Part shown: one piece after another, positions 5,253 to 63,798 of the stretch
How positions within the stretch are numbered: the stretch's first letter is position 1
Layout of the letters: each line of letters opens with the position of its first letter
DNA from: Hormiphora californensis
Taxonomy: Eukaryota > Animalia > Ctenophora
Length of the DNA stretch: 64,000 bases
Direction: 5' to 3'
Assembly (NCBI GenBank): GCA_020137815.1
Contig: CM035359.1
Span: 2,852,001-2,916,000 of the forward strand
Position numbers and translations under genes: made by a program
Notes under the pieces: generated by a model
What the model saw: the letters and a program-made list of their open reading frames with translations, nothing else
Databases searched by the model: none
Told to the model about the DNA's origin: nothing

Positions 5253-6347
5253 TCACAGTCCAGTGTCCTGTGTATTTTGACTGTTTTGAATGACTACAGG
5301 AACTCCCGGCCTAGTTGGCTGACTACCTGTTCCCGCTACTGGCTGACTACTTGTGTGTGCCTCCCTCCCTCCACCAGTGATCCTATCAGCTACCCATGCT
5401 GCATATTTGGGTATCCTAATCAGGTAGACCACTGGGTTGACAGCGGCGTTCACACAGGGAAGCACGGCTCGTGTAAGGGGCCATGCGTACCAGTACATGA
5501 ACACTGTCATAAAGTGTGGTTTAGGGTAGGTACCAGCCATCATGTCCATCAGGTAGTAAATATCAATCACAATGAAAGGTGCCGTGGTTACTAGGAAGAT
5601 TCCAGTAAGCGTTGCTATGGTAACTGTAGCTCGCCGACTTCTGGAGCTTCCTGAGCCGTGGTTTCTTCGGAGTAGGTAACCAGCGGACACAGCGAATGAA
5701 AGTAGAACGATGCAGGTAGGGATTATGTAGGAAAGGTTGGGGAGAAGCTCCCAGAGTTGATCATTATCGAATTCTGGGACGTTGGGATTCGAGACGAAGG
5801 TACAGTAGACCGTCGAAGTGGAATACTCCAGTTTGTAGCTATCCTTGGTGGTGAGCGTGAACGTGACACCCTCAATAATCGTGTAGACAGCCCAAACTCC
5901 TATTGCAATAAAGATATATCGTCTCTGTAACCGGATGTACGGCCTCAATATCACCACAATTCTCGAGGCACTCAACACAAGTGTGAGGAAGAGGGACGCC
6001 TCCAGGAGGGTGCCCCAAACAGTGGCCCAACCGTAACATAAAGGCTGGGAGTGGAACCACCTCGGTTCACGGTTAGCTAACAGGGACACCAAGACTGGGA
6101 TACCACACAGACCCGTCAGCAGGTCAACCCCACACATGAACATGTACACGCACGTGGCAATGTCCTTTTTAGGGGACCGGAGGGTGAAGTAGTAGAGTGC
6201 GGTGGCGTTACCAGGGACTCCGATCACTGTTGCCAGGAAGATGGTGAGGGCTAGAATGTGGTCCCAGTTCCGGTGTTCTGGGTAGTAGAGGACGATGGGG
6301 AGGAAGAAGACGTGGGGATTCCATACTTCCGGAACGAGGGACACCAT
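5253..6347 (-). CDS. Single-exon orphan rhodopsin-like (class A) GPCR, 364 aa
   Basis: Seven hydrophobic segments; GN in TM1, Asp in TM2, Cys at the top of TM3 (PLCYGW), SASR at the DRY position, P in TM6 (TTAPF), NPVVY in TM7. Confidence 0.9.
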   Translation of the reverse strand: MVSLVPEVWNPHVFFLPIVLYYPEHRNWDHILALTIFLATVIGVPGNATALYYFTLRSPKKDIATCVYMFMCGVDLLTGLCGIPVLVSLLANREPRWFHSQPLCYGWATVWGTLLEASLFLTLVLSASRIVVILRPYIRLQRRYIFIAIGVWAVYTIIEGVTFTLTTKDSYKLEYSTSTVYCTFVSNPNVPEFDNDQLWELLPNLSYIIPTCIVLLSFAVSAGYLLRRNHGSGSSRSRRATVTIATLTGIFLVTTAPFIVIDIYYLMDMMAGTYPKPHFMTVFMYWYAWPLTRAVLPCVNAAVNPVVYLIRIPKYAAWVADRITGGGREAHTSSQPVAGTGSQPTRPGVPVVIQNSQNTQDTGL

Positions 6348-9298: not shown

Positions 9299-10668
9299 GG
9301 CAATTTCTCATTTGCGGCATACGGCGTCTAGACGGCGTCGCAACGCCGTCTAGACGGCGTCTAGACGGTATACCGTCTGGACGGGTTTCGGTGAAATCAG
9401 CTAAAAACGGTACCGAAATTGCTTGAGACGGGTTATAGACGGTATCAGACGGTCTCTAGACGGGTTATAGACGGTATCAGACGGTGTTGCGACGGTATCA
9501 GACGGTCTCTAGACGGTGTCTAGACGGTACCGTCCCGGCGTCTGGACGGTGTCTAGACGGTATTCGTCCGAAAATTGTATCAGACGTTGAGACGGACTTT
9601 TAGAACTCCGTCTGTATTTCAGACGGAGTTTTAAAAGTACGTCTCAACGCAGTCTAAAGGAAAATCGATGAAAGTACCGTCTAGACAACGTCTCAACTGA
9701 AACCGGTCAACATACCGTCTAAACAACGTCTAGACAACGTCTAAACAGAATCTCGCGATTCAGTTTCAAATACCGTCTAGACAACTTCTCCAGCAATTTC
9801 GATAAGAATACCGTCTAAACAACGTCTAGACAACGTCTCAAATAATGATGTCTAGACTCGACCGTTTTCGAAGACCATTCTGGATTACCCATGCCAGTTG
9901 GAATTAGTGGTAGATGTGTGGTAGGCAGTCTAAAGAATTAAACTTCGCGCCTTACATTCATGAGACGACAATGGCGGGTTGCTGTTTCTTCTTACATTCA
10001 GCCAAACTGTTTTGGTATCTCCACATTCACTCTTACATCCAGCTATCGCGTTGTAATACAACTGTGAGATACTGTTTATGGCTGATACTATGAGACGTTG
10101 TTTAGACGGTATCTGTATCGGATTCGCTTAAGACGTTGTCTAGACGTTGTTTAGACGGTATTCGTATCGAAATTGCTAGAGAAGTTGTCTAGACGGTATT
10201 TGAAACTGAATCGCGAGATTCTGTTTAGACGTTGTCTAGACGTTGTTTAGACGGTATTTTGACCGGTTTCAGTTGAGACGTTGTCTAGACGGTACTTTCA
10301 TCGATTTTCCTTTAGACTGCGTTGAGACGTACTTTTAAAACTCCGTCTGAAATACAGACGGAGTTCTAAAAGTCCGTCTCAACGTCTGGTACAATTTTCA
10401 GACGTGCCGTCTCAATTTCGGACGGATACCGTCTAGACACCGTCCAGACGCCGTCCAGACGCCGGGACGGTACCGTCTAGACACCGTCTAGAGACCGTCT
10501 GATACCGTCGCAACACCGTCTGATACTGTCTATAACCCGTCTAGAGACCGTCTGATACCGTCTATAACCCGTCTCAAGCACTTTCGGTACCGTTTTTAGC
10601 TGATTTCACCGAAACCCGTCCAGACGGTATACCGTCTAGACGCCGTATGCCGCAAATGAGAAATCGCC
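9299..10668. mobile_element. Non-autonomous foldback/Mutator-like element with ~550-bp TIRs built from TCTAGACGG-type subrepeats
   Basis: Ends GGCAATTTCTCATTTGCGGCATACGG ... CCGTATGCCGCAAATGAGAAATCGCC; perfect 9-bp TSD GATCATAGA at 9290-9298 and 10669-10677. Confidence 0.85.
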
Positions 10669-10690
10669 GATCATAGATCCATAAAATGTA

Positions 10691-13997: not shown

Positions 13998-15466
13998 ATG
14001 TCAAGACGTCTTCTTTCGTATACCTCCCGAGCACTCAAGTATACTGCAACTACCCGCTCCCTCTCGGCGCTCCCAGCATGCGGTGAGTAATATGCTTAAT
14101 GCGTTTATACATAATGCAGTTATATACAACATGGAAATTTTACTGAAGTCCAATTTACATACGGAGGTGTCGTGCATGGTATACCGTACATGTGGCAGAA
14201 AATTAATTTTTCCACTTTTTTCGCTTCAGCTTGTTCCAGCGGTCCACCGGTCCAGAGCTCTCCGCATTTCTACAGATCGCAGTACTGGAAGTGATGCTCC
14301 TTCATAAACACACCCTTCTCCCACCCCGTAGGTCACACCCCGGCACCCTATACCGGGCCATCTAAGGAGGAAGTCCTCAGTGTCAGAAAGGGCCATGTAA
14401 ACCCCGCAGTTCACCGACAAACGTTCTTCAGGGACCCACCACTATTCGTCGAAGGTAAGATAAATTCAATTCCTGCTCAGATCTCAATATTCAGAGTAAA
14501 ATATATGGTTTTATTTTTGTTCGTCACTTGCAAACTGGCATTGAGAAAATACTCCAGGTTCTAAAATGTAATAAAATCGCAGGAAAGGGCCAGTACTTGT
14601 TCGACGAACAAGGTGAGAGGTACCTGGATCTTATTGGCGGTATCTGCACCATCTCCGCCGGTCACAACCACGACAAGGTATAATTAATCTGATCTGAAGT
14701 TATCTCCAGGCTCCGATCCCTAAATTGTTGTTTGGCCCGGGCCAAACACCAATTTACGGATCGGCCCTTGTGAAGGTCGAGCTTTTTTACACCTGTGGCT
14801 AACCTTTAAATCTGGATGATCATCACATTTTAACCTCTGATAATCATCTCAGATTAATGGCAAGATTGCCGCCCAGCTGGGTACCCTGACACACACAGCC
14901 AACATCCTGCTACACCCCAACCTGTCCAAATACACCAAGGCCATGGCCAAGAAACTGCCCAAGGAGCTGAGCGTCATTTACTTCTGTAACAGGTGGGTGT
15001 GTTTTGTCCCAGTCATAATTCTGAACTAGTGACAATTGTTGGACGTTGGTGACAAAGGTTCCTCATAGACATTATAAAGCCTCGCTAGACCGACTCACCA
15101 GGAGTAAAATAAAACAACAGTCAACACGGCTGTTGATTATATTTTTGCTAACTCGTTATTCTTATCATAGTGGAAGTGAAGCGAATGATTTGGCAATGCT
15201 TATGGCTCGAGCATACACCGGAAATCTGAACATTGTTGGTAAGTTAACTTTGAGTTCTTGTTTTAAGTAGCCAGTCTTGTTCATTCATTCATTATTGTTG
15301 CACAGCACATATTGCTAGCCATATAAAAACCGGTTTTCACTGCACATGGTTACCCAGTTTAGATAGTGTCTTACTGCATATTGAGACACCGTCTTGTTTT
15401 CTTTAACTCATTGCAACTCATATTTTATCTCTCCCTCTCACCCCTCATACATAACCACGTTAGTCG

Positions 15467-15541
<75 letters not shown>

Positions 15542-18500
15542 CCCTCATACATATATGATAGCCATGCCACTTCTTCCCCAAGCTGTTTATTTAACCACCT
15601 TTCCTGGCCGATTTCCAGACGAGTAAAAACCGGTTTGAAAAAGACAACACTTCCCCCTTTACCTGTACTTGACTTTCTACAAATGTCGAACACCCTGAAA
15701 ATGATACTTTGTCATGCAGCAGTCGACGCTCCCCTTGAAAGTTGAAACCATCACGTGTGGACCTCAACATCTCCACTCCCCCCTCAAATCCACAGCTTAC
15801 CCCTCTCTCATACATATCCATTGGTGACACAGTCACCCCTCCACTACCAGCCACACAAGGGCGGCAAACGGAGGGGATGGCATCACCAATCATATCCATA
15901 GCTTCCCTGTTCTCATCCCACCCTCTCTCTTGTCAGGACTAAGAAGGGCTTACCACGGTGCGTCAGCATCCAACATCTCCCTCACTACACTACCTCTGTA
16001 CCGAGCTCGAACTATGCCAACAACCAACATCTCCCATACAATGAATGCTGACCCCTTCCGAGGTCTGTGGGGCGGCAGCAAATGCAGGGATGGCCCTTGT
16101 CAGGTGAGCTTGAGCAGAGTAAAGTTAGAGTATGAGATGTTGAAAATCAGATTTATAAATGATAAATCAGCAATTAAGATTGGATTTTATAGGCTTGAAA
16201 AATGAAAATCTACCTCATTCCTCCCTTTTTGCACACACCCTCATTATAACTCCCATTAATCTGCAGACACTGCGAAGCTGTGACTGTGTAGGGGATGAGT
16301 GTAATGCTGCGACTAACTACGCCGAACAGTACCGGGATCACGTGAGAACCATCTGTCCCCCTGGTGCTGGTCTGGCTGCCTTTATTGGAGAAGGTATCGG
16401 TGGGATGGGAGCCGCCCTTCAACAAACCAAGGGATTCTACAATAAGGTAAAGTGTGGTTACTATTAGAGTAACACGACTCAGACAGCTATTATAACAAGT
16501 GTGGGAATATATCATAGAGTAGAATTATAATGAAATGAAACAGGAAAAGGGCCGAATTATTATCTTATCGATGTAATATCTTTCCAGGTTTATGACATCA
16601 CAAAAGAGTATGGTGGTGTGAACATTATGGATGAAGTTCAGACCGGATTTGGAAGGCTCGGTTCCCATTATTGGGGTTTCGAGTATCACGGCGTTATGCC
16701 TGATATTATCACTGCCGCAAAAAGTAAGTTCTTTATTCTCGAATCAATTACCAAATTGAATACGAGAATACGGGACGGTAAACCAGCCCTCCAACCTGCA
16801 GGTATCGGTAACGGTTTCCCGCTTGCCATGTGTGCCACAAGTCCTGAGATTGCGGAGGCCTTCGCTAATAGCTCCCTTCACTTCAACACCTTCGGTGGAA
16901 ATGCTCTACAATGCGCTGCTGGCCTAGCCACCTTAGAGGTAGGTGCAATATGGTTCATCATCTGTTATTCGGTTGAAGTCCATTTAATAGTTTTTATGGT
17001 TTAAAAGTCGTGCATGGTCTGGTTAGATAGTATTTTTCCTCATGCTTTGTATTCTGAAACCACTGTTAGGTGCAGACTGGTGAAATCTCATTTTCGGCCC
17101 GTCAGATAACCGTTAATTTCTTGGCAATTTTCCAACCCCCCCCCCAAATATATGGCACTCTCCCAACCATTGTCATATGATATTATTATATCATGTACCG
17201 ACGACGGTGGTGAGCATGTGTCTTTTTCTGAGAACTGAAAATGGGAAAGATAAACAGAGACGCATAATTCGATTCAACGTAGGAGACGCATATATTTTCC
17301 CGCTTTTCTCTCTCTCCCGCTTTTCTTTAAAACCGGTTTTACAAACTTGCCTGCGGTGTTGATTACATAGCCTCTTGTCTCGCCCGTAATTCTAAAATTG
17401 AATCAGATATTACATAATATGCATATCGCATCGTATAAATTTATGCAGCGTGCAGTTTAATTTTTTTGCTAGAATATTCTGAATTATAGATCTTGCAACG
17501 TGGATCTATAGCTTTATTCAACCTGAGTTAGATATATCACTAGACTGGATATCTCTCCAGATTTTATGATCACTGATCAAGTTGATGTTTATCTAATACG
17601 CTGGTAACACATATAAGTATGAGAGAGTTCACCATATGATATACATCATCCATTGCAGGCTATTGAGGAGGATGGACTCCAAGAAAACTGTGCATTGGTA
17701 GGAACTCATTTCCTGGAGGGATTCAACAAACTTCGAACCAAACACGAGATTGTCGGGGATTGCAGGTAATTTTTCCCTGCCCGGGTGAATGCCGAAGGCA
17801 TTCACCCGGATGCCTTTTTACTTTGTAAAAAGGCATAGCAGGGTTAGAATTCGAAAACGACATTTTGGTATACTAACTAATCGGTAGAGGGACATTTTTT
17901 GGTCACACTTTCGTTGCGAGGGGCAACGGTGTAGCAACTAGAGCCGCGCACACAGTGACGAGCTGCTCCTTTATCAAACACCTCATTGACACAGTTTGAT
18001 GGACGTGTGTGCGCGCGCCACTCAACAAAACATGACATGCGATGCCGCGTGTTACATACACATTGTCATCTTGCGAGTCGAGTGTGAAAGGTTAGATAAG
18101 TAGTTAAGTTGGAATGTCAAAAGCTAGTTAGCAAGTGTCATGTGAGTTAGCTAAGCTATGTGAGAAGTATACCGACAGCTAGATCGTATGCTTCTCACAT
18201 TACATTATGACCAAGCCTTGATCCTATTGGTAGTGACAATGTCAATGTCACTGTCAGTGTCACTGACATGTGAAACGGTAGGGCAGGGAAACTCAGCATT
18301 ATGAATACATAATGCAATAATTCTTGTTACTTAAATTGAGCGATCTAGGTCTTGTAATCTTATACGACGTACTAAGTACGTGTGTCTCCTGTCTATAGAT
18401 AGACCTATAATAATATGGATCGCCGCTTTTCTTCCCTATTTATAAACAATTTCCATAATTTCAGAGGTAAAGGATTGTTCATGGCGATGGAACTTGTGAC

Positions 18501-18977
18501 TGATAAAGCAAGTAACAATCCCCTCCCCGTTTATCACATTATGGCATTGTTGGAGGCACTCAAGGTATATACTTCTTCATAAAGTACATAAATATTTCTT
18601 ATTGCGGTACTCCTTTATCAATATTTACAATGCTCCTTCATAAAACTATCTTTCCACAGGACCGCAGATGCATCTTCGGACGTGGTGGTCTATTTGGTAA
18701 CTGTCTACGTATTCAGCCGCCTATGTGTGTTACCCTAGAAGATGCAGATTACACACTCGCTGCTTTGGATGCGGTAAGAAATACATTTTATCCTAGAACA
18801 TTTTCTGTCAGTCTGTCTCCGTAAAATGCTAACGATGTTATCTAATTTGTCACTGGTATCTTCAAACTGATACACTGTTTGTCTTCCTGTTCTTTATCAC
18901 TATTCATTCTTTTCCAGGTCCTTACTGAATACACAGAGGGGAAACTCGATGTAGAGTCGTTCAACCCCAACAAATAA
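13998..18977 (+). CDS. AGXT2: Alanine-glyoxylate aminotransferase 2-like class III PLP aminotransferase, ~503 aa, with predicted mitochondrial presequence
   Basis: 13 in-phase GT-AG exons: 13998-14082, 14332-14454, 14583-14677, 14853-14992, 15171-15238, 15937-16103, 16267-16446, 16588-16723, 16802-16938, 17659-17765, 18465-18564, 18660-18773, 18918-18977. Motifs: [39 protein letters not shown] (PLP lysine), [16 protein letters not shown]. It has the Cys-rich [14 protein letters not shown] insert typical of animal AGXT2. N-terminus [23 protein letters not shown] is Arg/Ser/Leu-rich with no acidic residues. Confidence 0.92.
17770..18328 (+). mobile_element. Helentron/DINE-1-like (HINE) non-autonomous element in AGXT2 intron 10
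   Basis: Sub-terminal inverted repeats TTTTCCCTGCCC ... GGGCAGGGAAAA, a 5' hairpin CCGGGTGAATGCCGAAGGCATTCACCCGG, and a 3' stem-loop GCATTATG-AATA-CATAATGC. Related copies at ~43040-43261 and 57484-58120. Confidence 0.6.
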
Positions 18978-19287
18978 TTATTGACTCATAGTGAGTCACA
19001 CAGAAATGCAAGACCCTTCTAGAACTTATCAAAACAGGAACAATTGATTATTATTATTATGTTGCACCGTTGTTAAGTGTTTTGTGTTTTTATCCGACCA
19101 TCCCTGATGTTGAATTATATTATTTACCATGGATCCATTTTTAGAAAAGTTACAGTGTTTTTATTAGAATTTAGGTCCCCACCTCCCCGTAAACGCAATT
19201 CAAATACCCGTCCCATAAACTCCCTATCCGTATCCTTTAATTAACCAATGTTTAACCTGATCTCCTAATAGTTAGCAAATAAGAAAT

Positions 19288-22200
19288 ATGGCAGGAAGAT
19301 CGATCATTGGTCGAGCACTAAATACGAGCAGGCCCTCCCTCGGTGCAGCACCCGCTGTGGCAGTCAGTCCTGCTACACAGGAACAAACAGTGAGTGAACT
19401 GTTGGAGTGTTGAAAACATGCCAATTTGTTGATTAGCTTTTGATTTTCACCCTTTCAATTTACATTACCCCCCCCCCCTGTAGTTTGAACAGAGATCAGA
19501 ACCAAGACATTACAGTGAGCCGGTGAGGATGACTGCTAGTGAGGCCCTAGTTGAGACCATGGCCAGACAGGGTGTGGAGAAGTGTTATGGGATTGTGGGG
19601 AGTGCCTTCATGGACGCCCTGGACATCTTCCCCGAGGCAGGCATCCGATTTGTTGCTGGTATGTTAGTTTTTGGGGTTCGGGAATACCTCTCCTTCATGT
19701 TTCTTTATTTTAGAACCCAATTATATCCATATGATATTACTCAGATAGTTTCAATGACCTCCTTCCTTACCCCGTAATCTCCCAACAGTGCAACACGAGC
19801 AGAATGCAGCACACATGGCTGACGGGTATTCAAGGATCAGTGGGAAACATGGTGTTTGTACCGCCCAGAATGGACCAGGTACATAGCAATCACAAAGTTA
19901 ACGTTGGGCATAAAAAATGTCCCCCCTAGACTAGCATAGTTCCAGATATCGTAGAGCTCTAAAATTTTACACAGTTACTCTATGGGGCAAATAAATAGGT
20001 TCCACAAAATTTCAGACTTTTAGCTCAAAGTTCATTTTTTTTATCGGAATGAACATTATCATTCATTCCAAAAAACATGATTTTTCGGTCCAGAAGTCAA
20101 GCAATTGTTTTTGGCTGTCAATTTTCTTTCAAATGCGACCAAGAAAAGCCCAAACGGACAACCACAAGGCAAACAGTGGTCATGTTTCTGACTGTTAGTC
20201 AGGTCATGTGATCCCCACCGAATCGTGTAAGTTATTCTGAATTGCTAATCAGGATTAGTTGTGGAGAATCACGTATCACAGCCGCTAATGAGGGATGACG
20301 ATGATGATTGGCCATGAGATCCGAAGCTCATTAACAAGTCACCTCTTTACCCAAGTGCTCCCGAATCACATATCGCTTCTTCGATACACATCCCTCATTA
20401 GCGACTGTGATACGTGATTCTTCCCTACTAAGCCTGATTAGCAATTCACGATTCGGTGGGGATCACATGACCTGACTAACAGTCAGAAACATGACCACTG
20501 TGTGCCTTGTGGTTGTCCGTTTGGGCTTTTCTTGGTCGCATTTGAAAGAAAATTGAGAGCCAAAGACAATTGCTTGACTTCTGGACCGAAAAATCATGTT
20601 TTTTGCAATGAATGATAATGTTCATTCCGATAAAAAAAATGAACTTTGAGCTAAAAGTCTGAAATTTTGTGGAACCTATTTATTTGCCCCATAGAGTAAC
20701 TGTGTAAAATTTTAGAGCTCTACGATATCTGGAACTATGCTAGTCTAGGGGGGACATTTTTTATGCCCAACACGTTATGATCATAACACGTGCATTGTAC
20801 TCCATTGCATGGATATTCTCACCAATTCCATATCACAAAGCAGATCCAATCCAAGCTTCTCACAGACAATGTCTTTTTACAGGTATCAGTAATTTTGTGA
20901 CCGGCATTGCAGCGGCTTACTGGGCCCACTCCCCTGTTATCGCCCTGACCCCAGAGGCTAGCACTATGACCAAGGGACATGGCGGCTTCCAAGAGGTCGA
21001 TCAACTACCACTTTTCGAGGTGAGCTGAAATAATTAGGTTTAATTAATTCAATTTGAATTTGGATTATAATTAGAGAGAAGAAGAATAGAAAGTATGTTG
21101 TATGATCAGTTTGAGTTGCTTCTACCATATTTACAGGTTTTTATCCCCTCCTGATCCTCCCCTGTTTTCACTTTTCAGCCCATTACGAAGTACCAAGGAC
21201 ATGTGAATAACCCCGCCCGAATGGCTGAGATTACAAACAGGGCATTTGACATTGCCATGGCCGAGCGAGGCCCAACACAAATCAACTTTCCTCGGGACTA
21301 CCTCTATTATGAAGGTAAATATTGGGGGAACAAGAAAGAGTTAAAGAAACTGAAAAAATGAACCCTCATTTCCAAATGTTCGCTCCAATAATCCTATAAT
21401 CATGATACTTAAGTTTATGACACATGTGCTTCCTACGATACAGGTGACTACCAGATCCCCAAGCCCACAATCCCTGAGAAGGGTGCCGGTGGCCCCAAAT
21501 CAATCCTGGCTGCCGTTGAACTGATCAGAAGTGCAAAGAATCCAGTTATTCTTGGTAAGTCCTAAGAGATAATGGTAGGTACTTTATTGTGATCAATTCT
21601 ATAGTTGGCAAAAACGAACAGTATTTACAACCAAGTCGAGGGTGTTGAGTAGCAATTGTTGAGATCAAATCACATGCGAAACTTTATTAAGTTGTAAACC
21701 TAGTAACCTCTGTAACTCTAGTTTAACCTTTCTTCTTCCCCCTCTCTAGCTGGTGGCGGTGTTACGATGGCGGGAGCTGAGGCCCAAGTTGCCCAGCTGG
21801 CATCCCTCCTATCAGCCCCTGTTGCAGTCACCTACCTTCACAATGATGCCTTCCCCGCTGATCACCCCCTGTATGCTGGAAGTCTGGGTTATCAGGGATC
21901 TCAAACTGCCATGCATTCCATCAGGTACTGCTGGAGATAAAGTCTCGATTCAAATATCTCGTGGTGAATCGGGCACTTGAATTGCCATATATTGAAAACA
22001 TGATGGTTTTTATATTTTCCAGAGAGGCAGACGTTGTGATTGCCCTTGGTACCCGCCTGTCACCCTTCGGCACTCTTCCTCAGTATGGAGAGGAATACTG
22101 GCCCAAAAATGCCAAAATCATTCAGGTTAGTAGCCGAACTATTCGAATCAGGACTCATGATAGGAAGCTTTCATCATTGATTGTTTGTGTCAATCTAAAC

Positions 22201-25021
22201 AAATCGTTTGCTGATAATATCAGTGATATACCATCCCAGCTAATTCTTCTATGATACCATCCCATAATAGTTGATTCCTAACATACTTTACCATATTACA
22301 GGTAGAGGTTGATCCTCGCCGAATTGGCCTTACCAAAAATGTCGATGTTGGCATTTGTGGAGATGTGAAACTCGCTACCGAGGAACTCACCACCCAACTG
22401 AAGGATGGTGGTTTTGCATGTATGGAAACCGTGGGAGAGCGACTTGAAACCCTTTCCAAGGTGAGATACAAGTGGGCCAGGGATGTTGATGTGCGGTTAT
22501 CCGTTGTGTGCAGCATAACGATTTATTACAATTGTATCTCATGCTGCTATAACTCATGCCCTCATCTTGTCAGTTTGTTGAATTTGCTAGTTTTGTGTTG
22601 GCGTTATACACAGACCTGATCCTATACCTTAAATCTATCTACTACCTCCCTAACTTCTTCTATACCTCCCATCTAACTTCTTCCCAATCTCCTTTTTCAT
22701 TTCTTTTCTTTTTCTGTCAATTTTTACTGTTTCCGAAGTCTATCTAATCCAAAATCCCTTTCTAGAATTATACTTTCTAATTTCTGCTGTTCTCCCATTC
22801 TTTTTCCATCCACTCCCTCAATTATCCTCTGATCTATTGTTTTAAATCTTCTTCCCTCCCTCCCAATATCTTTCATCATACCTCTGAACTCTCGTCTCTC
22901 TTCCTTCTATCATTCGAACTCCTTCCTTGCCCCACTCCGCTCCAGTATTCTAATCTCTAAGATTAAAATATTTTCGGATTTTCCTATCCAACCTTTTTAT
23001 ACTTTCCTTTTCTTCTTGAAACCCATATTTTTTTTCAAAAAGATAAACCCTACTCAACTGCTACCACCGTCAAAGAAACACGGTTTCAAAACCTGTTCTA
23101 CTATCTCCAAAAGCCAAAGATCAAAACTCCCCCCATTCAAACGGGGCCTGGAATTTCTCGGAACCGATAAAACCCACGGATTCAAAGATTTTCATCCTCT
23201 CTCTTTCTTTCCATCCTCTCTCTGTGTTTTTCGCCGACACACTCCTCTCTCATCCTCTCTGTTCGTTATCTCTCTCTCTCTCCCATATCGCACGGTGTTG
23301 TCTACCTTTATATGCTACAGGTGTTAGGTGTTCCAGATGGTCGGGCGGTGTCAACAACCAGTATCCTGAGTAGCCGGTCCTGAGCCCGTATTCTACGGTA
23401 TTTATTCCCGATGGTATCTACTTAATTAAAAGCTTTAATAATATCAAGCTTTTTACAAAATCTTTGAATAAATTTCACCCATGTACACAAGATATACTCA
23501 TTCACGAGCCCCTGGGAGAAGCTGCGGGAAGGAGGGGGAACTAGCTCGTCCAAAACAGAAACAATCTCTCTCTCTAACAGTGCTCCTAAGAAGGGGATTT
23601 GTGGGGGATGGCAATACCGGGTTGGTTCACTGGTGGTGGTGTAGTTACACCTCTTTGCTCACGTACTCCGTTTCAGAGACGAATCACGTGGACTTCAAAC
23701 CTGGATGCCATGACAAATGCCCATGTCGGCAGCTCCACCCCAGATCGGGTGAGGCCGAGACAGGCCCTCAGGGAGCTGGAGCTTGCCATGGAGAGGGATA
23801 GCATTGTCAGCACTGATATTGGAAATATCTGTAGCGTTGCCAATAGTTACCTCAAATTCAGGTAAGCATTTCCATTTTTTCAGATCTAGATTTGTTTATC
23901 CCCTCTTAGCATATAACCGCGACCGATTGACCATCATCATTTGCTGCATCATTCCGCCCTCTCCAATCTTCTAACACTAACCCTGACTATTCTTCCAGCC
24001 ACGTCGGTCCCAGTATGTTGGCAGCGATGACCTTTGGTAACTGCGGTTACTCTCTACCTGCTGTAATGGGAGCCAAAACAGCAGCGCCCCACCGAAACTG
24101 TGTCAGCTACTCTGGAGATGGTGCATGGGGCATGCAGCTCAATGAGGTATGTATAATAGTTCTTACTATGCGGGGAGGGAGTAGTACTTTTCTCAATGAG
24201 GTTCTTATCATATTTGACTGGGGCCGGGGTAAGAAGGGGGTGCATCATATCGTATCTCATATCCTTCCTCCACTGAATAAGCTCACCCCGTCCCCTCCCT
24301 CCCCCTCAGATCATGACGTGTATCCGTGAAGAGATCCCTGTGACAGCTGTTGTCTTCAACAATGGACAGTGGGGAGCCGAGAAGAAAAATCAGGTACAAT
24401 AATTTCATACGGCTGTCAGACCATGGTGTGTCAGCTCTCGTGCACTTTTAGAACTCGGGATCCATGCGTTGTGGTACAGCTCGTGCTATAAGTAACGATG
24501 TGGAAGAATGGGGCCGTGGTGTAATTAATAATTACTAATAATAATTACTAATTATCCATCCCTTCACGTGCAGGTGCTCTGGTTTGGTGATCGTTACATC
24601 GGGTCCCAGCTGAAGAACCCCTGGAGCTATGCAGAGATTGCCCGATCAATGGCTGCTGAAGGAATCACCTGCACCCACGTAGATCAGGTATAGATACACC
24701 AGTGATCTGGGTTGTCACCATGGCAACTTAGTCACCATGGCAACCCGGAACCCCCCCATGGCAATTTAGAATTGGATCTCGCTCACATAATATGTCCATG
24801 TCACCGATCTCCTCTCCCCTCACTAGGTTGGCGATGCTCTCCGAACTGCCAGTCAGAACCAGAGGGATGGAAAAACCACCGTTATTGAGATCATGGTTAC
24901 CAAAGAACTGGGGGACCCCTTCAGACGGGACGCCATGAAGCTACCTTTCCGACATTTGGAGAAATTCCATAGCACCATTCAGACCTCAGAGAGCGAGTCG
25001 GGCCAGCCCACAGACTTGTGA
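19288..25021 (+). CDS. xsc: Sulfoacetaldehyde acetyltransferase (ThDP-dependent desulfonase, EC 2.3.3.15), ~637 aa, with presequence-like N-terminal extension
   Basis: 14 in-phase GT-AG exons: 19288-19389, 19484-19658, 19789-19878, 20883-21019, 21179-21314, 21444-21554, 21750-21924, 22023-22125, 22302-22460, 23677-23861, 23999-24146, 24310-24393, 24574-24687, 24827-25021. Xsc-type strings: [104 protein letters not shown]...[22 protein letters not shown]. Confidence 0.9.
19903..20771. mobile_element. ~870-bp palindromic (foldback) insertion in xsc intron 3
   Basis: Arms ~19903-20296 and ~20392-20771 are near-perfect reverse complements (GTTGGGCATAAAAAATGTCCCCCCTAGAC... / ...GTCTAGGGGGGACATTTTTTATGCCCAAC). 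TSD not clearly resolved. Confidence 0.8.
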
Positions 25022-26106: not shown

Positions 26107-47424
<21,318 letters not shown>

Positions 47425-47574: not shown

Positions 47575-50500
47575 TTAAGTCATCATAAGGCTGTCCTGGT
47601 CAAAAAATTCTTCAATCTGGTCCTCAGAGAGTCCAACTTTCTCCAGGACCCCTCGGAAGGTCCGTTCGTCAATTGCATCACCTTTGGTTTCCTGAAAAGA
47701 GGTTGGTGTTCGGTTCGGGGCGATTGTCAGCGCAGGTCGCCATTCGAATATGGAAACAAAGCTACTGAAATGCTGTACTTTTAACAGATGCGCGCACTTG
47801 CGCGTACCTGTCGTTCGAAGAGAAACGGTCTCTCATCAATTTTGGCCTTCATTCGATCCAACTGTATTTTGTACTCCAACTCCTTTGCTTTTTGCACCTC
47901 GCTGTAACAAAATAATGGAATTTGAAATCAACTTTATCGTTAGATGTCATGGCAAGAAATCTAAAGTGAGCTGACAGTATTCAAAACAGGAAACTCTTAC
48001 ATTTTCTGTCGCAGTTGGTCTGATTTGGAGTTGGATGGGGGAGTTTTTCCCTGTCTCGCTGCCATCTCCTTACGTAGATCCATCGTTCTCATCCTCGTTA
48101 CCAGTTCCTTTTCTCTCTCCTTCTCCTCTTTCTCCTTCTCCTATTATAGGAGGAATATAATACATGTTACTAAACGTCTAAACGTTAAAACTAGGAAAAA
48201 CAATCCAAACGAACACACAAACAGATTTGTTCAGTGTTCCTGTTAGCTGTTTAAACAGAAACAAATCTCGATATATTGCTAACCTGTTGTAGCCTCTGTT
48301 TTGTAAGAGAATCCCGTAGTGTACTGCTAACTGTTGGACGACTCTCAGCAACAAGCTCGGGGTACACTCCTGTAGGGGGGAGGGGGACATTTGGAGCTGG
48401 TAGTTGTATTTGAGTGCGGGAGGGAACTCTAAAATTTTAAATTATAATATTTAATTTCATAATTAATTAAAAATTTAATTAAATAACAAAATGTCTCCAA
48501 CCTGTATAATGAAATTGTTTCATTTCACTCCTAACTCTCTCCCCCTCAGCCCCATTCTCCATGGCCTTCAGGGCTTGTTCCCTCTTCTTACATTCTGCAA
48601 GCAACTCAGTTCGCAGTGCAAATGGTTCCACAATGGTCGTGGGTTTGGTGATCTGTCTCCTGATTAGCGCTTCTTCCTCTTGTTTGTGCTGACATAAGGG
48701 GGGGGGGGGGGGGGGGTTAGGTCTAGGATGGGTTTGGGGGGGGGTTAGGATGGGGGGATTTGGGGTTAGGATGGGAGGATTCGGGGTTAGGATGGGGGAT
48801 TTGGGGTTAGGATGGGGGGATTCGGGGTTAGGATGGGTTTAGGGGAGTTGGTGTTAGGATGGGGTTAGGTTAGGAGAGGCGGAGTTAGATCAGCCGAGCA
48901 GTAACATTTGTTAACTGTGTCTCATCCAGCTCTGGATGTTGAATTTATCAGATCTTGTCAAGGCAGGTGTAACACATCAAGAGATGTCGAAATTTGAGAG
49001 CCGGGATGAAGATCACTCGCTTGCTATAATTGGTCCTCGCCCCTAAGCAAAATATATTTTGCTTAGGGGCAATTATAGCAAGCGAGATACATATAAAACC
49101 TATACTTCCCAGTTCCCAGTTCCCACATAAGTATACTGAGAAACATTTAATTATCCCTAAAAGGCTCCACATACATGTACATCTCTCACTTCTAGGAGAG
49201 AGGGTCCCCCATGATAGTATACTTGGGAATACGAAGCCTATGAATAAAGTGGAACATATTTCATAGTATGCCTCCCCCACCAAGACCATTAGACAAACCC
49301 AATTCTCATCAAATTTCCAACTTGAAGTTGTTTCATAGACTCTCGATTTGGCAAAAATACACTGCTCATTACAAATCACCAGTAGATAAAGATCAGAAAG
49401 AGTTTTATCTTACCAGAAGCTCAAAGTCAGGTATAAAATTTCTAATAACGGGGTTGAATGTGTGTTCCTCCGTCAAATGTGCCCTCTTTTCACGTTTCTC
49501 CTGCGCTGCTCTCCTAATCTTACCATCTGAAGTTAATTAATTAATTAATTAATGAGTCATTATACTAATTAGAATTTACTGGTAATTTCACATGCAGAAG
49601 CTTTACTCAAACTGTATTCAGTCAAACCTCGATTCACCAGACTACTCGGGGTTTGTACGCTAAATCGAGGTCCGGTAAATGGAGATTTGACTGCATTTAA
49701 CAAACAAAGTACGAACCAGTGTAGTGTAAACTATGTCTTTTCATAGAGCTGGGTAGATCACTTTTTGCCAAGAGCTGTTCAGATCTCATTTTCATCCTAA
49801 TTTCCCTGTACGCCTCTTCCTCTCTCATCTTTTCTTCAACTTCGCCACTGTAAAATGTAGGGTATTAATGATCTAATTCATTAATGATCAAATTTATTGC
49901 TAGTTTAGCGACCAAGTGGTTTACCAAGAGAGTACCAATAAAGCTCCTAACTGTTCAAAAGAGATCTATACAAGTATTAAACTCGTAATAAGACTAAGAT
50001 TTACCACAGAAAACTCACTCAAACAGATGGTAAGGAAAGGGTCGGGCTGAGAATCTCTGTGGTTGAGGTGCCGCGGTTGCCTGCTGTTTCCTCTCTCCAT
50101 CTCCATCGAGTGCTGACAATGATCTACTTCTTTTGATAGCTGCTCTCTCGTCAAAAGAGAAGGGTTTTTGTAGAGCTTTCGTTAGAGTTTTCCGGTCCGA
50201 TTTGACTCGTTCTCTTCTCGCGTCCTGGAAAAAAAAATGAAAGTGCAGTACGACCACGATTTACCGGGAGGATAAACTTCCCCCAGGAAATTAACGGTAT
50301 TTGACCCCGATTTACCGAGCAAAACCCGAGCATCCTGGTAACTCGGGGTCCAACTGTAACTCTTAGAAGACTACAGAGCGAAGGAGCAAGATAAAAGGGC
50401 GTTATTAAAAAGGGATGGTTGATATAGGTGTGTTATAAATAACCCTGTTACTGTACAGCTGCTCTGTAAGGTATAAATGATATAAAATGAAACCTATAAA

Positions 50501-52399
50501 TACCCTCCCTCCATCAATATGCAAGATTTTACACCTTGATCTAAAAATACAAAATAAATCAAGTAAAAACCTTGATTCGCTTGACATTGTGTCCGTGCTC
50601 GAATAAAAAGAAAGTATGAACAATTCAATAAAAACCTGTCGTTTTTGTAGACTGTGCAGGCGATTTTCAAAGGTAGAAGGAGGTATTGGGGATGCTTTAA
50701 ACTGTTTTTTACACTCAGCTTCTTCTACCATTTCCCGCTCTAATTTCTTCATTTCCGCCTCTATCTGTGGAAAATGATTGTATTTCAACACCATGTAAAG
50801 TGTGAATAAAGTTTCAAAAAATATTTGAATTGTTAGCTCTAAGCACCTGGTTTTTAGTCTTGGTTGGTTTCTTTAACTCATCTCGCAGTGTCATAAAGAA
50901 CGGATCGGGTACAGTTACCCGTGGCCTCCGAGGTCGAGCTCGTTTAGGTGGGGCAGAATACGATTTGTGGGTTACTTTTTGTGGTTCCCGGGGGGCGTAT
51001 TTATCAATGGTGAAATCTTTCCACATGTCAGATACAGTGGTGTTCTGAGATGACTGAAATGTGTGGAAATTATGTTATGGTGGCAAAGATTAGTAAAACC
51101 GATAAAATCAAACATACTGCCTCACTCCTAGCTTCACTGTTTGCTTTGTAGAGTAATTTGCAGCCAGTTTTATTGAAACTTACAAGACGAGGAATATCAC
51201 ATGTGGAGTTGAGAGAGTAATCAGGCACACAGTCCGCCAGAGTGGTCTGATCTGCAGCTGCTGATGTTGCATTGTTCTCTGTCGCAGTTGATGCTCCCCC
51301 AATGGTCGTGTTTCCCTCGACATACTCCCTATCGATTGACAAGTTTAGTCGGAATATCGAATGTATCTTTAGATGGGGGGGGGGGGGACATGTTAATTTT
51401 GTTAACTTTGTTAATATTAACATCGAGAAAACAGGTGATTTATTAACAAAATTAACAAAAAGTTAACAAACGTTAACAAATGCCATTTATGCCATCTAAA
51501 TCCCCTTTAGTATTAGCACGTATTTTTAGTATTTAACACTTGTTCTGCGAGCAAAGTTGTTCATTCTGTACGATTTACATACCCCTACTACCTCTACTAC
51601 GGCTTTTCTACAGCGATTTATTCCATTTTGTTAATGTTAATAAATACTAGCCAAACTAAACCGCAATTGAAGTCAAATGAGCCTAATCCACATTTTCGCA
51701 CCCTAAAAACTAAATAAGACTCATGAATTTACCTTAAAACGAAAAATATCCCAAAAATCTATTTTTCTAAAAAAACACAAGGATTTGTAGCGAAGCAAAT
51801 TTTCAATCCTTGACCAAAAAATTGATTTTGGGAAAATTTTATTTCTTTTTTCAACAGAAACGTTGTACATCATCTTATTAAGTTCAAAGAATCGATTACT
51901 AATTTAAAAATTACGTTTAAGTGAGATTTTATACGCTAAATTGAAATATTTGTAACTTTTGGAATTTTATCGATTTTGAGCCAAAAAACCTGTATGTCGG
52001 ACTTTGGTTATCGGAAAAGGCCTTGTTTGGGTATATATGTGTTAGATAATTCATTAAACTATAAAATTAAACCAGTTAAAGTCGTATTATCAACCAATAA
52101 GAACAGTCTTTTAGCATTTGTTAATTTTGTTAATTTTGTTAATTAACGTTAATTAACAAAATCGAAAAAAGAGGTGATTTATTAACAATTAACATGTCCC
52201 CCCCCCCCTTTAGATTCAAATTAAAGTTCTTCTAGGTGAAAAATGAAATTGGTACTCACCTGAAAGACACGGATGATTTGGGAGCTATAAAACTCTCATA
52301 CAGGTCCTTGTATAGTTCGACTGTTTTGCTTTGGCGAGTTCTCAGCTCGGTAATTCTCTCCAAACTGCTCACGTTTGTCATATCAATGTCAGATGCCAT
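47575..52399 (-). CDS. FAM161: FAM161A/B-like ciliary/centriolar microtubule-binding protein (~12 exons)
   Basis: Exon translations MASDIDMTN..., MWKDFTIDKYAP...VTVPDPFFMTLRDE, EEAECKKQFKASPIP, ALQKPFSFDER, FSARPFP, EEEAYREIRMKMRSEQLL, C-terminal FRGVLEKVGLSEDQI. These match the FAM161 (UPF0564) pattern as recalled. Confidence 0.85.
48700..48873. repeat. ~20-bp tandem repeat GGGGTTAGGATGGGGGATT(T/C) immediately upstream of a FAM161 3' splice site
   Basis: Directly visible; sense-strand unit contains CCTAAC. Confidence 0.85.
51375..52207. mobile_element. Intact ~830-bp copy of the G-run TIR element in FAM161 intron 1
   Basis: (G)nACATGTTAATT ... AATTAACATGT(C)n with 8-bp TSD CTTTAGAT. Confidence 0.85.
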
Positions 52400-61590: not shown

Positions 61591-62571
61591 GGATGGAGGA
61601 TAAGCATGGAAGATGCCCACACAACACAACTCAGTATAGGGGGTAACACGAGAACTAACTTTTTCGGAGGTACGTTTCAAACCCCCTCCCGGCTCCCCCT
61701 GTTTCAAATGTTCCATTCAACTTTATTTGTTCCATTCTCACGATATCGACTAGATCTACACTCATTCGTAATCGTTTAACCTTTCCTCTGTGCCCTAATT
61801 CTCCCCTGCTCCCTCTCTGATTCCTGATCCCTAATTTTCCAAATATAATATTCCCATCCCCTCCCAGTATACGATGGGCACGGTGGATCCCAATCAGCCT
61901 ACTACACACAGGAGAATCTACACAAAAAGATAACCAGCCAGCCTGCATTCAAGAGCGGTAATGTTGAGGAAGCCCTAGTAAAGGCATTCGTGGAGCTCGA
62001 TAAGGATATGCAGGAAGGTAAGAGAGTTGGGTGAGATTTTGACTTTTGGAGCGAGATTTTGACTTTTGGGGCGAGATTTGAGTTTTGGGGCTTGGGGTGA
62101 GGTTTGGGCTTGGGGTGAGGGCTTGTTTTGGGAAATTTTTAGGGCTGGTCTAGACTCCCAATAATTGTCTAGCAGCCCCAACACCTTTCCTGTCCTCTGA
62201 ATAGTACCACTTCAAGTTCCAACTTCCATTCACGTTCAAACTAGAAGTTCTAGTTCCCAATTTCATTCCCATAACCGGAAAAGGGATACAACAAAACATG
62301 TTCACCCTCTTTATTCACCCTCTTTATTCACCCTCTTAATTCCTGTCTCAGATTCAGAATGTCGCTTCACAACCTCTGGCTGCACTTCTGTGGTAGTGAT
62401 GACACGAAATAACCAGATCTACTGTGCTAATTGTGGTGATTCAAGGGCTGTGTTGAGTGAAAGAGGTCAAGCTATCCCGCTATCTTTCGATCATAAACCG
62501 GGAAATGAGGGTAGGTAGTAGAACTTTTCGGTGGCTCTATCTATCTATCTATATATCTCTATCTTTCTCTT

Positions 62572-62653
<82 letters not shown>

Positions 62654-62660
62654 GTCTGTC

Positions 62661-62726
<66 letters not shown>

Positions 62727-63798
62727 TCTATCTCTCTCCCCCATTCTTCTACACACTACTATCCCTACGCTTATTGCACCACAGTTTCAATCAAATCGCG
62801 ACTCAATAACCTCTCCCCTGCAGAAGAACTATCGCGAATCAAAGCAGCCGGGGGTTTCGTTGAATTTAACAGAGTCAATGGTACACTAGCTCTCTCCCGG
62901 GCACTGGGTGATTTCGAGTTCAAACGTGGTAACCTGGCTCCTAAAGACCAAATGGTGACAGGTAAATTATTTAATTTGATAATTATTTTTTAATAATTTA
63001 TTTAATATTTCTTATCATTGATTGCATATACTATTAGAAAAGACCAAGATGAGGGGAGAAGTCGGTATCCGAGGTTCCTAAGATGTTTTTATTAAACAAA
63101 CACAAGCAAACAAACAAATCAAGTTCCGAGTCTGAACAGCGCAAGGGTCGAACGAGTAAATTTTGAACTCAAATATATCCGTTTGGCGTGTTTGGTTGGA
63201 GGGCGCGGTGAGTGGCGCGCATGGAAAGTACACCAAATACAGCGCGCTGTGTTATGGGGCACTGTTGGTGGGATGTGAATTGTCCCTGGAGCAAAGCGGT
63301 GTGGGTGGGGCCCCTGAGAGAGGTGTGTCATGTGGGAGCCGTGAGAAGGATAAAGGAGGAGAGATAGTGTGAGAATCGATGATACCTTGTTGCTACTCAA
63401 CAAATGATACCACCCTTTCTCTCCGCAGCGGTGCCGGAAGTGACAGTAACACCGATGAACGAAAACCAAGAATTCATTGTGCTAGCGTGTGATGGTATTT
63501 GGGATGTTCTGACAAGGCAAGAGGTGGTCGATTTCATCAGACCTAAGTTGGCCGAGGGCCAAAATCCTAGCAGGGTAAGAATTGAGCTTTCGTTTTACTA
63601 GATTTTGCCTAAACTTGACCCTAAAATTAGCCATGTCTTATCTCTAGTTGTAAATTTTCCAGGACCGGTTTGATTCATTTTTCATGACCCTCTCCGCAGA
63701 TATGTGAAGCGATATTGACGCGTTGTTTGGCCCCTAGTACAGCTGTCGGAGGGCTAGGATGTGATAATATGACCATAACTTTAGTTTCTCTTATGCAG
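61591..63798 (+). CDS. Protein phosphatase 2C (PPM family, Ptc2/ppm-2-like); first coding exon not found, 3' end runs out of the window
   Basis: Exons ~61591-61669 ([10 protein letters not shown]), 61868-62017 (VYDGHGG), 62352-62510 (SGCT...[11 protein letters not shown]...SFDHKP), 62824-62961 ([18 protein letters not shown]), 63429-63574 (LACDGIWD), 63700-63798 (GCDNMT). Confidence 0.92.

What the first reader, a model, noticed from the sequence alone, without database searches (positions are those of the whole stretch)
19288..25021. Fully eukaryotised xsc: 13 spliceosomal introns and an added presequence on a bacterial-type enzyme
Seen: Xsc-like sequence begins at [11 protein letters not shown], preceded by ~48 extra residues ([48 protein letters not shown]) mostly on a separate first exon. 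The ORF is unbroken over 13 GT-AG introns, one carrying a host transposon, and its neighbours are animal genes, so this is not bacterial contamination. Established: characterised Xsc enzymes are bacterial. Inference: either an old horizontal acquisition followed by intron gain and mitochondrial retargeting, or an ancient eukaryotic gene with patchy retention in marine lineages.
Basis: partly seen in the sequence, partly recalled or inferred. Interest (0 to 1): 0.8.

Follow-up and report, generated by a model that had tools for sequence, protein, structure and literature searches.

The report
Comb jelly sulfonate-splitting enzyme gene
A comb jelly carries a real, spliced 14-exon gene for an enzyme family characterised only in bacteria that likely strips sulfur from a taurine breakdown product, and the gene belongs to an old group shared with jellyfish and many protists, so these organisms may break down taurine themselves rather than leaving it to bacteria.

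Summary
The gene is real: 14 exons, 13 GT-AG introns, a 637-aa unbroken frame. Twelve of the 13 introns are seen spliced out in RNA contigs. Each of exons 2-14 matches the Xsc models best, and full-length orthologues pass the curated Xsc cut-off. The host is a Pleurobrachia-like ctenophore. The transfer reading fails in its narrow form. The protein sits in a supported eukaryote clade with Mnemiopsis, jellyfish, amoebozoans, a diplonemid, a dinoflagellate, a chrysophyte and Ancoracysta. AU tests reject a separate bacterial origin for ctenophores or animals. The N-terminal extension is shared across that clade, not added here. Best reading: an ancient, patchily kept eukaryotic Xsc, likely mitochondrial, likely desulfonating sulfoacetaldehyde. 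A diverged AGXT2-like transaminase gene ends 310 bp upstream and could supply the substrate from taurine (untested). RefSeq already auto-labels cnidarian copies 'Xsc-like'; I found no paper on eukaryotic Xsc. The scan's earlier notes cover only bacterial clusters. Enzyme activity, localisation and bacterial donor remain unshown.

The parts
19288..25021 (+). Xsc gene, 14 coding exons: 19288-19389, 19484-19658, 19789-19878, 20883-21019, 21179-21314, 21444-21554, 21750-21924, 22023-22125, 22302-22460, 23677-23861, 23999-24146, 24310-24393, 24574-24687, 24827-25021; 637 aa
   Evidence: model; 12 of 13 junctions in RNA contigs; exons 2-14 best match TIGR03457/PRK07525
19288..19389 (+). Exon 1: first 34 residues of a 48-residue N-terminal extension; residues 1-30 hold 3 Arg, no acidic residue, 7 Ala, 6 Ser/Thr (presequence-like; targeting predicted by composition only)
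   Evidence: no family match; residues 1-32 low-confidence in the Mnemiopsis model
19903..20771 (.). Foldback/MITE-like element in intron 3: 325-nt arms 99% complementary, inner 60-nt arms 92%
   Evidence: single copy in the window
23321..23413 (+). Alternative cassette exon inside intron 9 with an in-frame stop after 20 codons (candidate poison exon), seen in one contig of one run
   Evidence: joints 22458-23319 and 23412-23676 in run X1
24827..25021 (+). Last exon, ending in a C-terminal tail (GQPTDL-type) shared by eukaryote clade A and absent from the prokaryotic rows
   Evidence: 0 of 115 prokaryotic rows carry it; present in the 11 clade A rows shown
13998..18977 (+). Upstream neighbour: 13-exon, 503-aa AGXT2-like class III aminotransferase with a basic, acid-free N-terminus; candidate taurine transaminase (inferred)
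   Evidence: model; 42-45% to insect proteins named AGXT2; class III; last two junctions in RNA
18978..19287 (+). 310-nt gap between the AGXT2-like stop and the Xsc start; RNA contigs of the upstream gene reach 19036-19068

Best explanation
This is a spliced, expressed ctenophore gene of the sulfoacetaldehyde acetyltransferase (Xsc) family, from an old eukaryote-wide clade, whose product is likely imported into mitochondria and likely cleaves sulfoacetaldehyde and phosphate into acetyl phosphate and sulfite. Shown: gene structure, splicing, purifying selection, family membership by profile score, and a place among other eukaryotes rather than among bacteria. Inferred: the reaction (from bacterial Xsc), mitochondrial targeting (from composition), and that the substrate comes from transamination of taurine, possibly by the diverged AGXT2-like enzyme encoded 310 bp upstream. 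Sulfite would go to sulfite oxidase and acetyl phosphate to acetate or acetyl-CoA (recalled pathways, not tested). The gene most likely entered eukaryotes once, early, and was kept in some lineages and lost in many.
For: Exons 2-14 all score best on TIGR03457/PRK07525, in profile order; the Mnemiopsis, Rhopilema and protist orthologues score 808-876 bits against a cut-off of 676.4 and at most 367 on acetolactate synthase (8 of 8). The window keeps 134 of 141 columns conserved in 111 bacterial Xsc rows and 38 of 42 that differ from three non-Xsc outgroups. 46 of 47 displayed exonic differences in RNA contigs are synonymous. Eukaryote clade A has 96/91 support and a shared C-terminal tail. Separate bacterial origins are rejected; one clade for all eukaryotes and a ctenophore+cnidarian clade are not. 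All 8 N-termini printed have 3-6 basic and 0-1 acidic residues in the first 25.
Against: No eukaryotic member has been assayed to my knowledge. The whole window protein was not scanned; its exon scores sum to about 607 bits, below the 676.4 cut-off, though pieces score lower than a whole protein. Branching inside clade A is mostly unresolved and does not cleanly follow the species tree: a diplonemid pairs with a dinoflagellate at 100/99, and ctenophores with cnidarians is unsupported in the careful tree. A second eukaryote clade B, with an Acartia transcriptome record, does not group with the other animals (AU p 0.005/0.0007). Most protist records are transcriptomes and may hold contamination. 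No pta or acetate kinase was noticed beside the gene, and no genome was held to look further. The neighbour is AGXT2-like, only 27-32% identical to aminotransferases beside bacterial xsc, and I found no paper linking AGXT2 to taurine.
Confidence: 0.68

Rival explanations
1. Same enzyme, but spread by one later bacterium-to-protist transfer followed by eukaryote-to-eukaryote transfers (including into early animals), rather than by early gain and many losses.
For: Patchy occurrence; odd supported pairings such as diplonemid with dinoflagellate and Paraphysomonas with a record labelled Symbiodinium; eukaryotes nest among bacteria in the FastTree runs; clade B is separate from other animals.
Against: Ctenophores and cnidarians each form clades and are compatible with being sisters; two tubulinid amoebae pair up (83/89); short unresolved basal branches fit an old radiation.
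Confidence: 0.17
2. The eukaryotic protein descends from Xsc but now acts on another aldehyde or 2-oxo acid, so it has nothing to do with taurine.
For: Only about 57% identity to the nearest named bacterial Xsc rows; seven conserved columns differ; no Xsc structure in the PDB to check the sulfonate pocket; downstream use of acetyl phosphate is unexplained.
Against: Orthologues pass an equivalog cut-off by more than 130 bits; 38 of 42 Xsc-specific columns are kept.
Confidence: 0.11
3. A bacterium-to-ctenophore (or bacterium-to-animal) transfer followed by gain of 13 introns and a new presequence, as in the first reader's leading reading.
For: Characterised Xsc enzymes are bacterial (PMC6453916 passages); ctenophores do carry intron-bearing transferred genes (PMC6005172 passages).
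Against: AU tests reject ctenophores+prokaryotes (p 0.007, 0.011) and ctenophores+cnidarians+prokaryotes (p 0.001, 2e-6); the tail and N-terminal extension are shared with protists; protist homologues score above all bacterial ones.
Confidence: 0.03
4. Bacterial contamination or an assembly artefact.
For: The public Pleurobrachia bachei model (P0001) is an internally duplicated 1108-aa misprediction.
Against: 13 GT-AG introns, 12 seen spliced, synonymous variation, and an orthologue on a 13-Mb Mnemiopsis contig.
Confidence: 0.01

Closest known systems
Bacterial sulfoacetaldehyde acetyltransferase Xsc (TIGR03457, PRK07525; Burkholderia/Rhodococcus-type and Sinorhizobium/Paracoccus/Ruegeria-type)
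   Same: Three-domain ThDP enzyme; best profile match on every exon; orthologues above the cut-off; about 57% identity to Burkholderia/Rhodococcus-type rows and 43-47% to the alphaproteobacterial type; 134 of 141 conserved columns kept.
   Different: Nuclear gene with 13 introns, a 48-residue N-terminal extension and a C-terminal tail; not in a tau/tpa/pta operon; activity untested.
RefSeq 'sulfoacetaldehyde acetyltransferase-like' proteins of Rhopilema esculentum (XP_065063844.1) and Clytia hemisphaerica (XP_066916507.1); Mnemiopsis leidyi KAL5271080.1
   Same: Same clade A, same tail and extension; 74% identity to Mnemiopsis, about 71% to Rhopilema.
   Different: These are automatic labels (Mnemiopsis: 'hypothetical protein'); I found no paper that describes or tests them.
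Acetolactate synthase, glyoxylate carboligase, 2-hydroxyacyl-CoA lyase (HACL1/ILVBL-type), pyruvate oxidase
   Same: Same fold (TM about 0.70-0.75 by query) and ThDP motifs.
   Different: 22-28% identity and far lower profile scores.
Bacterial Tpa-Xsc taurine pathway (Ruegeria pomeroyi paradigm) versus animal AGXT2
   Same: A class III aminotransferase gene lies directly before xsc on the same strand.
   Different: The neighbour is a native AGXT2-family gene (42-45% to insect AGXT2), not a co-transferred Tpa (27-32% to aminotransferases near bacterial xsc), with altered ESIQG, AKGIG and IKPP motifs; taurine activity and conserved linkage are untested.

Membership tests
Xsc (TIGR03457 equivalog) | Best profile match and whole-protein score above 676.4 bits | tested here: met
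   Best match for 13 of 13 core exons; 8 of 8 full-length eukaryotic homologues score 808-876. The whole window protein was not scanned; its exon scores sum to about 607.
Xsc (TIGR03457 equivalog) | TPP_N/TPP_M/TPP_C architecture with catalytic Glu and GDG..NN motif | tested here: met
   Pfam domains on the orthologues; E96, G497-D498-G499 and N524-N525 read (motif roles recalled); model pLDDT 85 with a ThDP-enzyme fold.
Xsc (TIGR03457 equivalog) | Residues conserved in bacterial Xsc and absent from related ThDP enzymes | tested here: met
   38 of 42 kept; only three outgroup rows define the set.
Xsc (TIGR03457 equivalog) | Converts sulfoacetaldehyde and phosphate to acetyl phosphate and sulfite | not testable with these tools
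   Needs an enzyme assay.
Xsc (TIGR03457 equivalog) | Gene context with pta/ackA and a sulfoacetaldehyde-forming enzyme | tested here: inconclusive
   AGXT2-like aminotransferase adjacent; no pta/ackA noticed by reading 8000-49000; no genome held.
Acetolactate synthase / HACL1 / ILVBL | Profile score above the family cut-off, or closer to these than to Xsc | tested here: not met
   TIGR00118 scores 349-367 against a cut-off of 538; solved relatives 22-28% identical. No animal ILVBL or HACL1 sequence was put in the trees.
Lineage-specific bacterium-to-animal horizontal transfer | Animal sequence groups with bacteria to the exclusion of other eukaryotes | tested here: not met
   AU rejection under two models; clade A 96/91.
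Mitochondrial matrix protein | Cleavable basic amphipathic presequence that directs import | tested here: inconclusive
   Composition fits in 8 of 8 N-termini printed; no targeting predictor was available; the window's helical moment is modest (6.3 over 18 residues).
Eukaryotic operon resolved by spliced-leader trans-splicing | Polycistronic precursor or spliced leader at the downstream gene's 5' end | tested here: inconclusive
   310-nt gap, same strand; contigs do not reach the 5' end of xsc and none spans the gap.

The most novel reading that the evidence does not exclude
Ctenophores, jellyfish and many heterotrophic protists keep an ancient mitochondrial taurine-desulfonation pathway; in this comb jelly its two enzymes, a re-specialised AGXT2 acting as taurine:pyruvate transaminase and Xsc, sit as a linked gene pair, possibly co-transcribed. 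Gelatinous zooplankton and protists would then mineralise taurine sulfur themselves, a job now credited to prokaryotes.
Probability: 0.28. Interest if true: 0.82.

Novelty: new variant of a known kind. Interest (0 to 1): 0.6.

Why it matters
Taurine is abundant in marine animals and its C-S cleavage is described as microbial in the papers I read (PMC6453916, PMC6647121, PMC10356861; passages). An expressed, conserved Xsc in ctenophores, cnidarians and diverse protists would mean that eukaryotes, animals included, can desulfonate C2 sulfonates. That bears on marine sulfur budgets, on assigning xsc reads in metatranscriptomes, and on host-versus-symbiont accounts of taurine use. It is testable with one recombinant assay. 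As a horizontal-transfer story it is weaker than first proposed, and databases already carry the automatic label.

Tried and rejected
No whole genome is held, so pta, acetate kinase, sulfite oxidase and synteny could not be searched. The 1108-aa P. bachei record looked like a fusion with the neighbour but is an internal duplication of Xsc pieces. The search for the Mnemiopsis AGXT2-like locus tag, to test conserved linkage, returned only unnamed relatives. A single-sequence fold failed (pLDDT 33). The fold search and PDB sequence search found no solved Xsc. ESM Atlas feature searches returned only acetolactate synthase clusters and do not give the family's range; its structure search for P0124 gave an Xsc cluster. 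The careful 80-row tree did not finish (quick tree used). The mixture-model AU test in treekit did not finish and was replaced by IQ-TREE runs with 5000 replicates, fewer than the 10000 the program advises. Run X5 laid nothing on the 5' part; this is no evidence of absence. A possible decayed retroelement in intron 9 was considered by eye; no Pfam match and no second copy. A donor lineage or mitochondrial (alphaproteobacterial) origin could not be resolved: the trees place eukaryotes differently relative to the long alphaproteobacterial branch. The supplements of the HGT compendium PMC13342648 were not readable, so a listing of this gene there cannot be excluded.
Full report
Observation. The gene is as described. 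Fourteen exons from 19288 to 25021 give 637 codons with no internal stop, and all 13 introns are GT..AG. Nine public runs were listed and seven were laid. Their contigs skip introns 1-5 and 7-13 at the modelled sites. Intron 10 has a short flank (21 letters) and intron 6 is not among the displayed joints. These contigs are mostly 90-99% alike (run X9 mostly lower), so they come from the same or related species. Of the 47 exonic differences in the displayed tables, 46 are synonymous; 92 further rows were not shown, and I left out intronic and UTR rows. Intron 3 carries an 869-nt foldback element. One contig includes a 93-nt exon with an early stop inside intron 9.

Identity. Each of exons 2-14 matches the two Xsc models best and in profile order; exon 1 matches nothing. 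The nearest record is a Pleurobrachia bachei model, 97.7% identical over the last 342 residues, followed by unnamed relatives and Mnemiopsis leidyi at 74%. The host is therefore a Pleurobrachia-like ctenophore. All 8 full-length eukaryotic homologues scanned pass the TIGR03457 cut-off (808-876 against 676.4) and fail acetolactate synthase. The whole window protein was not scanned. It keeps 134 of 141 columns conserved in 111 bacterial Xsc rows, and 38 of the 42 that differ in three non-Xsc outgroups. An alignment-based model of the Mnemiopsis protein has a ThDP-enzyme fold with a low-confidence first 32 residues; no solved Xsc was found.

Distribution and origin. The best 120 of 7999 scored hits to the Mnemiopsis protein are led by eukaryote-type sequences. 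Named members are Rhopilema and Clytia (RefSeq 'sulfoacetaldehyde acetyltransferase-like'), Copromyxa, Rhizamoeba, Dracoamoeba, Artemidia, Polykrikos, Paraphysomonas and Ancoracysta. Most other members are unnamed and were labelled only by where they group. In a 50-row mixture-model tree clade A has 96/91 support, ctenophores 100/100 and cnidarians 98/98, with little resolution between groups and a bootstrap that had not fully settled. Quick trees joined ctenophores, cnidarians and an unnamed group that includes a Phyllostaurus transcriptome record at SH 98, but the careful tree did not keep this. Clade A shares a C-terminal tail found in 0 of 115 prokaryotic rows. AU tests under LG+F+G4 and LG+C10 reject ctenophores+prokaryotes (p 0.007, 0.011) and ctenophores+cnidarians+prokaryotes (0.001, 2e-6). 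They do not reject all eukaryotes as one clade (0.50, 0.42) or ctenophores+cnidarians (0.48, 0.42) (5000 replicates). A second clade B of 61 rows, with one named record (an Acartia fossae transcriptome), does not join the other animals (0.005, 0.0007). It may be an old paralogue, a second acquisition or a non-animal passenger. The bacterial sample came from 80 close loci, plasmid records and two phylum samples (27 of 401 and 6 of 301 genomes matched). It is not exhaustive, and no donor is resolved. Bilaterians, sponges and fungi were not surveyed.

Presequence. Residues 1-30 hold three Arg, no acidic residue and many Ala/Ser/Thr; residues 31-48 are acidic. Seven orthologues show the same pattern with extensions of 49-62 residues (which stopped after 8 rows). 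Most full-length clade A members have extensions. Mitochondrial targeting is likely but predicted from composition only, and it predates this lineage.

Neighbour. A 13-exon, 503-aa class III aminotransferase ends 310 nt before the Xsc start on the same strand. Its named relatives are insect AGXT2 proteins at 42-45%. Aminotransferases beside bacterial xsc are only 27-32% alike, so it was not co-transferred. It differs from AGXT2 in three conserved motifs, which may mean changed specificity. AGXT2 is mitochondrial with broad specificity including beta-amino acids (PMC6470580, passages), and taurine is the sulfonate analogue of beta-alanine (recalled). In bacteria Tpa makes sulfoacetaldehyde from taurine and Xsc cleaves it to sulfite and acetyl phosphate (PMC6453916 and PMC10356861, passages). 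The pairing is suggestive but could be chance in a compact genome; conserved linkage was not testable. Ctenophores have spliced-leader trans-splicing but operons had not been reported in them (PMC7986045, passage). No contig here spans the gap.

Mechanism. Most likely taurine or a related C2 sulfonate is transaminated in mitochondria, Xsc releases sulfite and acetyl phosphate, and sulfite oxidase and an acetyl-phosphate-using enzyme finish the job. Only the gene, its expression and its family are shown; each reaction is inferred, and the last two steps are recalled and untested.

Literature. Ten full-text searches listed no paper on a eukaryotic or animal Xsc; the library lacks most subscription journals. 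The Mnemiopsis transfer study does not mention sulfoacetaldehyde or taurine in its main text (PMC6005172, term search), nor does the compendium preprint (PMC12637581, term search). The supplements of PMC13342648 could not be read and could list the gene. One study of a eukaryote size fraction tabulates Xsc transcripts without comment in the passage seen (PMC5012681, one table row). PMC6647121 and PMC11293860 (passages) treat taurine and sulfonate breakdown as prokaryotic. The scan's own notes returned nothing by words and only bacterial clusters by sequence.

Verdict. A real and well-supported eukaryotic variant of a known bacterial enzyme family, already auto-labelled in databases but apparently undescribed. 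It is not a ctenophore-specific transfer. Its interest lies in the testable claim that some animals and many protists cleave the C-S bond of taurine-derived sulfoacetaldehyde themselves.

Noticed in passing
window 23321-23413 (+): Cassette exon with an in-frame stop inside intron 9 of xsc, included in one RNA contig (run X1); could be a poison exon regulating the enzyme or splicing noise.
   Followed up: partly
window 32429-32306 and 31860-31738 (-): Small two-exon gene read by eye inside an intron of the downstream + strand gene: signal-peptide-like start, about 80 aa, four cysteines and a poly-Ala end; looks like a secreted peptide precursor.
   Followed up: no
window about 26100-47420 (+): Long multi-exon gene with Pro-, Cys/Gly-rich and coiled-coil segments directly downstream of xsc; converges tail-to-tail with a FAM161-like gene (weak Pfam match at 50408-50872).
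   Followed up: no
window 9300-10670, 17830-18000 versus 43080-43260, and 37360-43570: Several long foldback or nested inverted-repeat elements seen by eye; this genome seems rich in MITE-like palindromes like the one in xsc intron 3.
   Followed up: no
proteins P0029, P0236-P0295 (clade B): A second eukaryote-type Xsc clade of 61 rows from marine metatranscriptomes and metagenomes, with N-terminal extensions but a bacterial-type C-terminus; only named record is an Acartia fossae transcriptome.
   Followed up: partly
protein P0001: The public P. bachei gene model is an internally duplicated 1108-aa misprediction of this gene.
   Followed up: yes
window 5253-6347 (-) and 62457-62993 (+): Intronless rhodopsin-family GPCR and a PP2C phosphatase exon, ordinary animal-type genes.
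   Followed up: no
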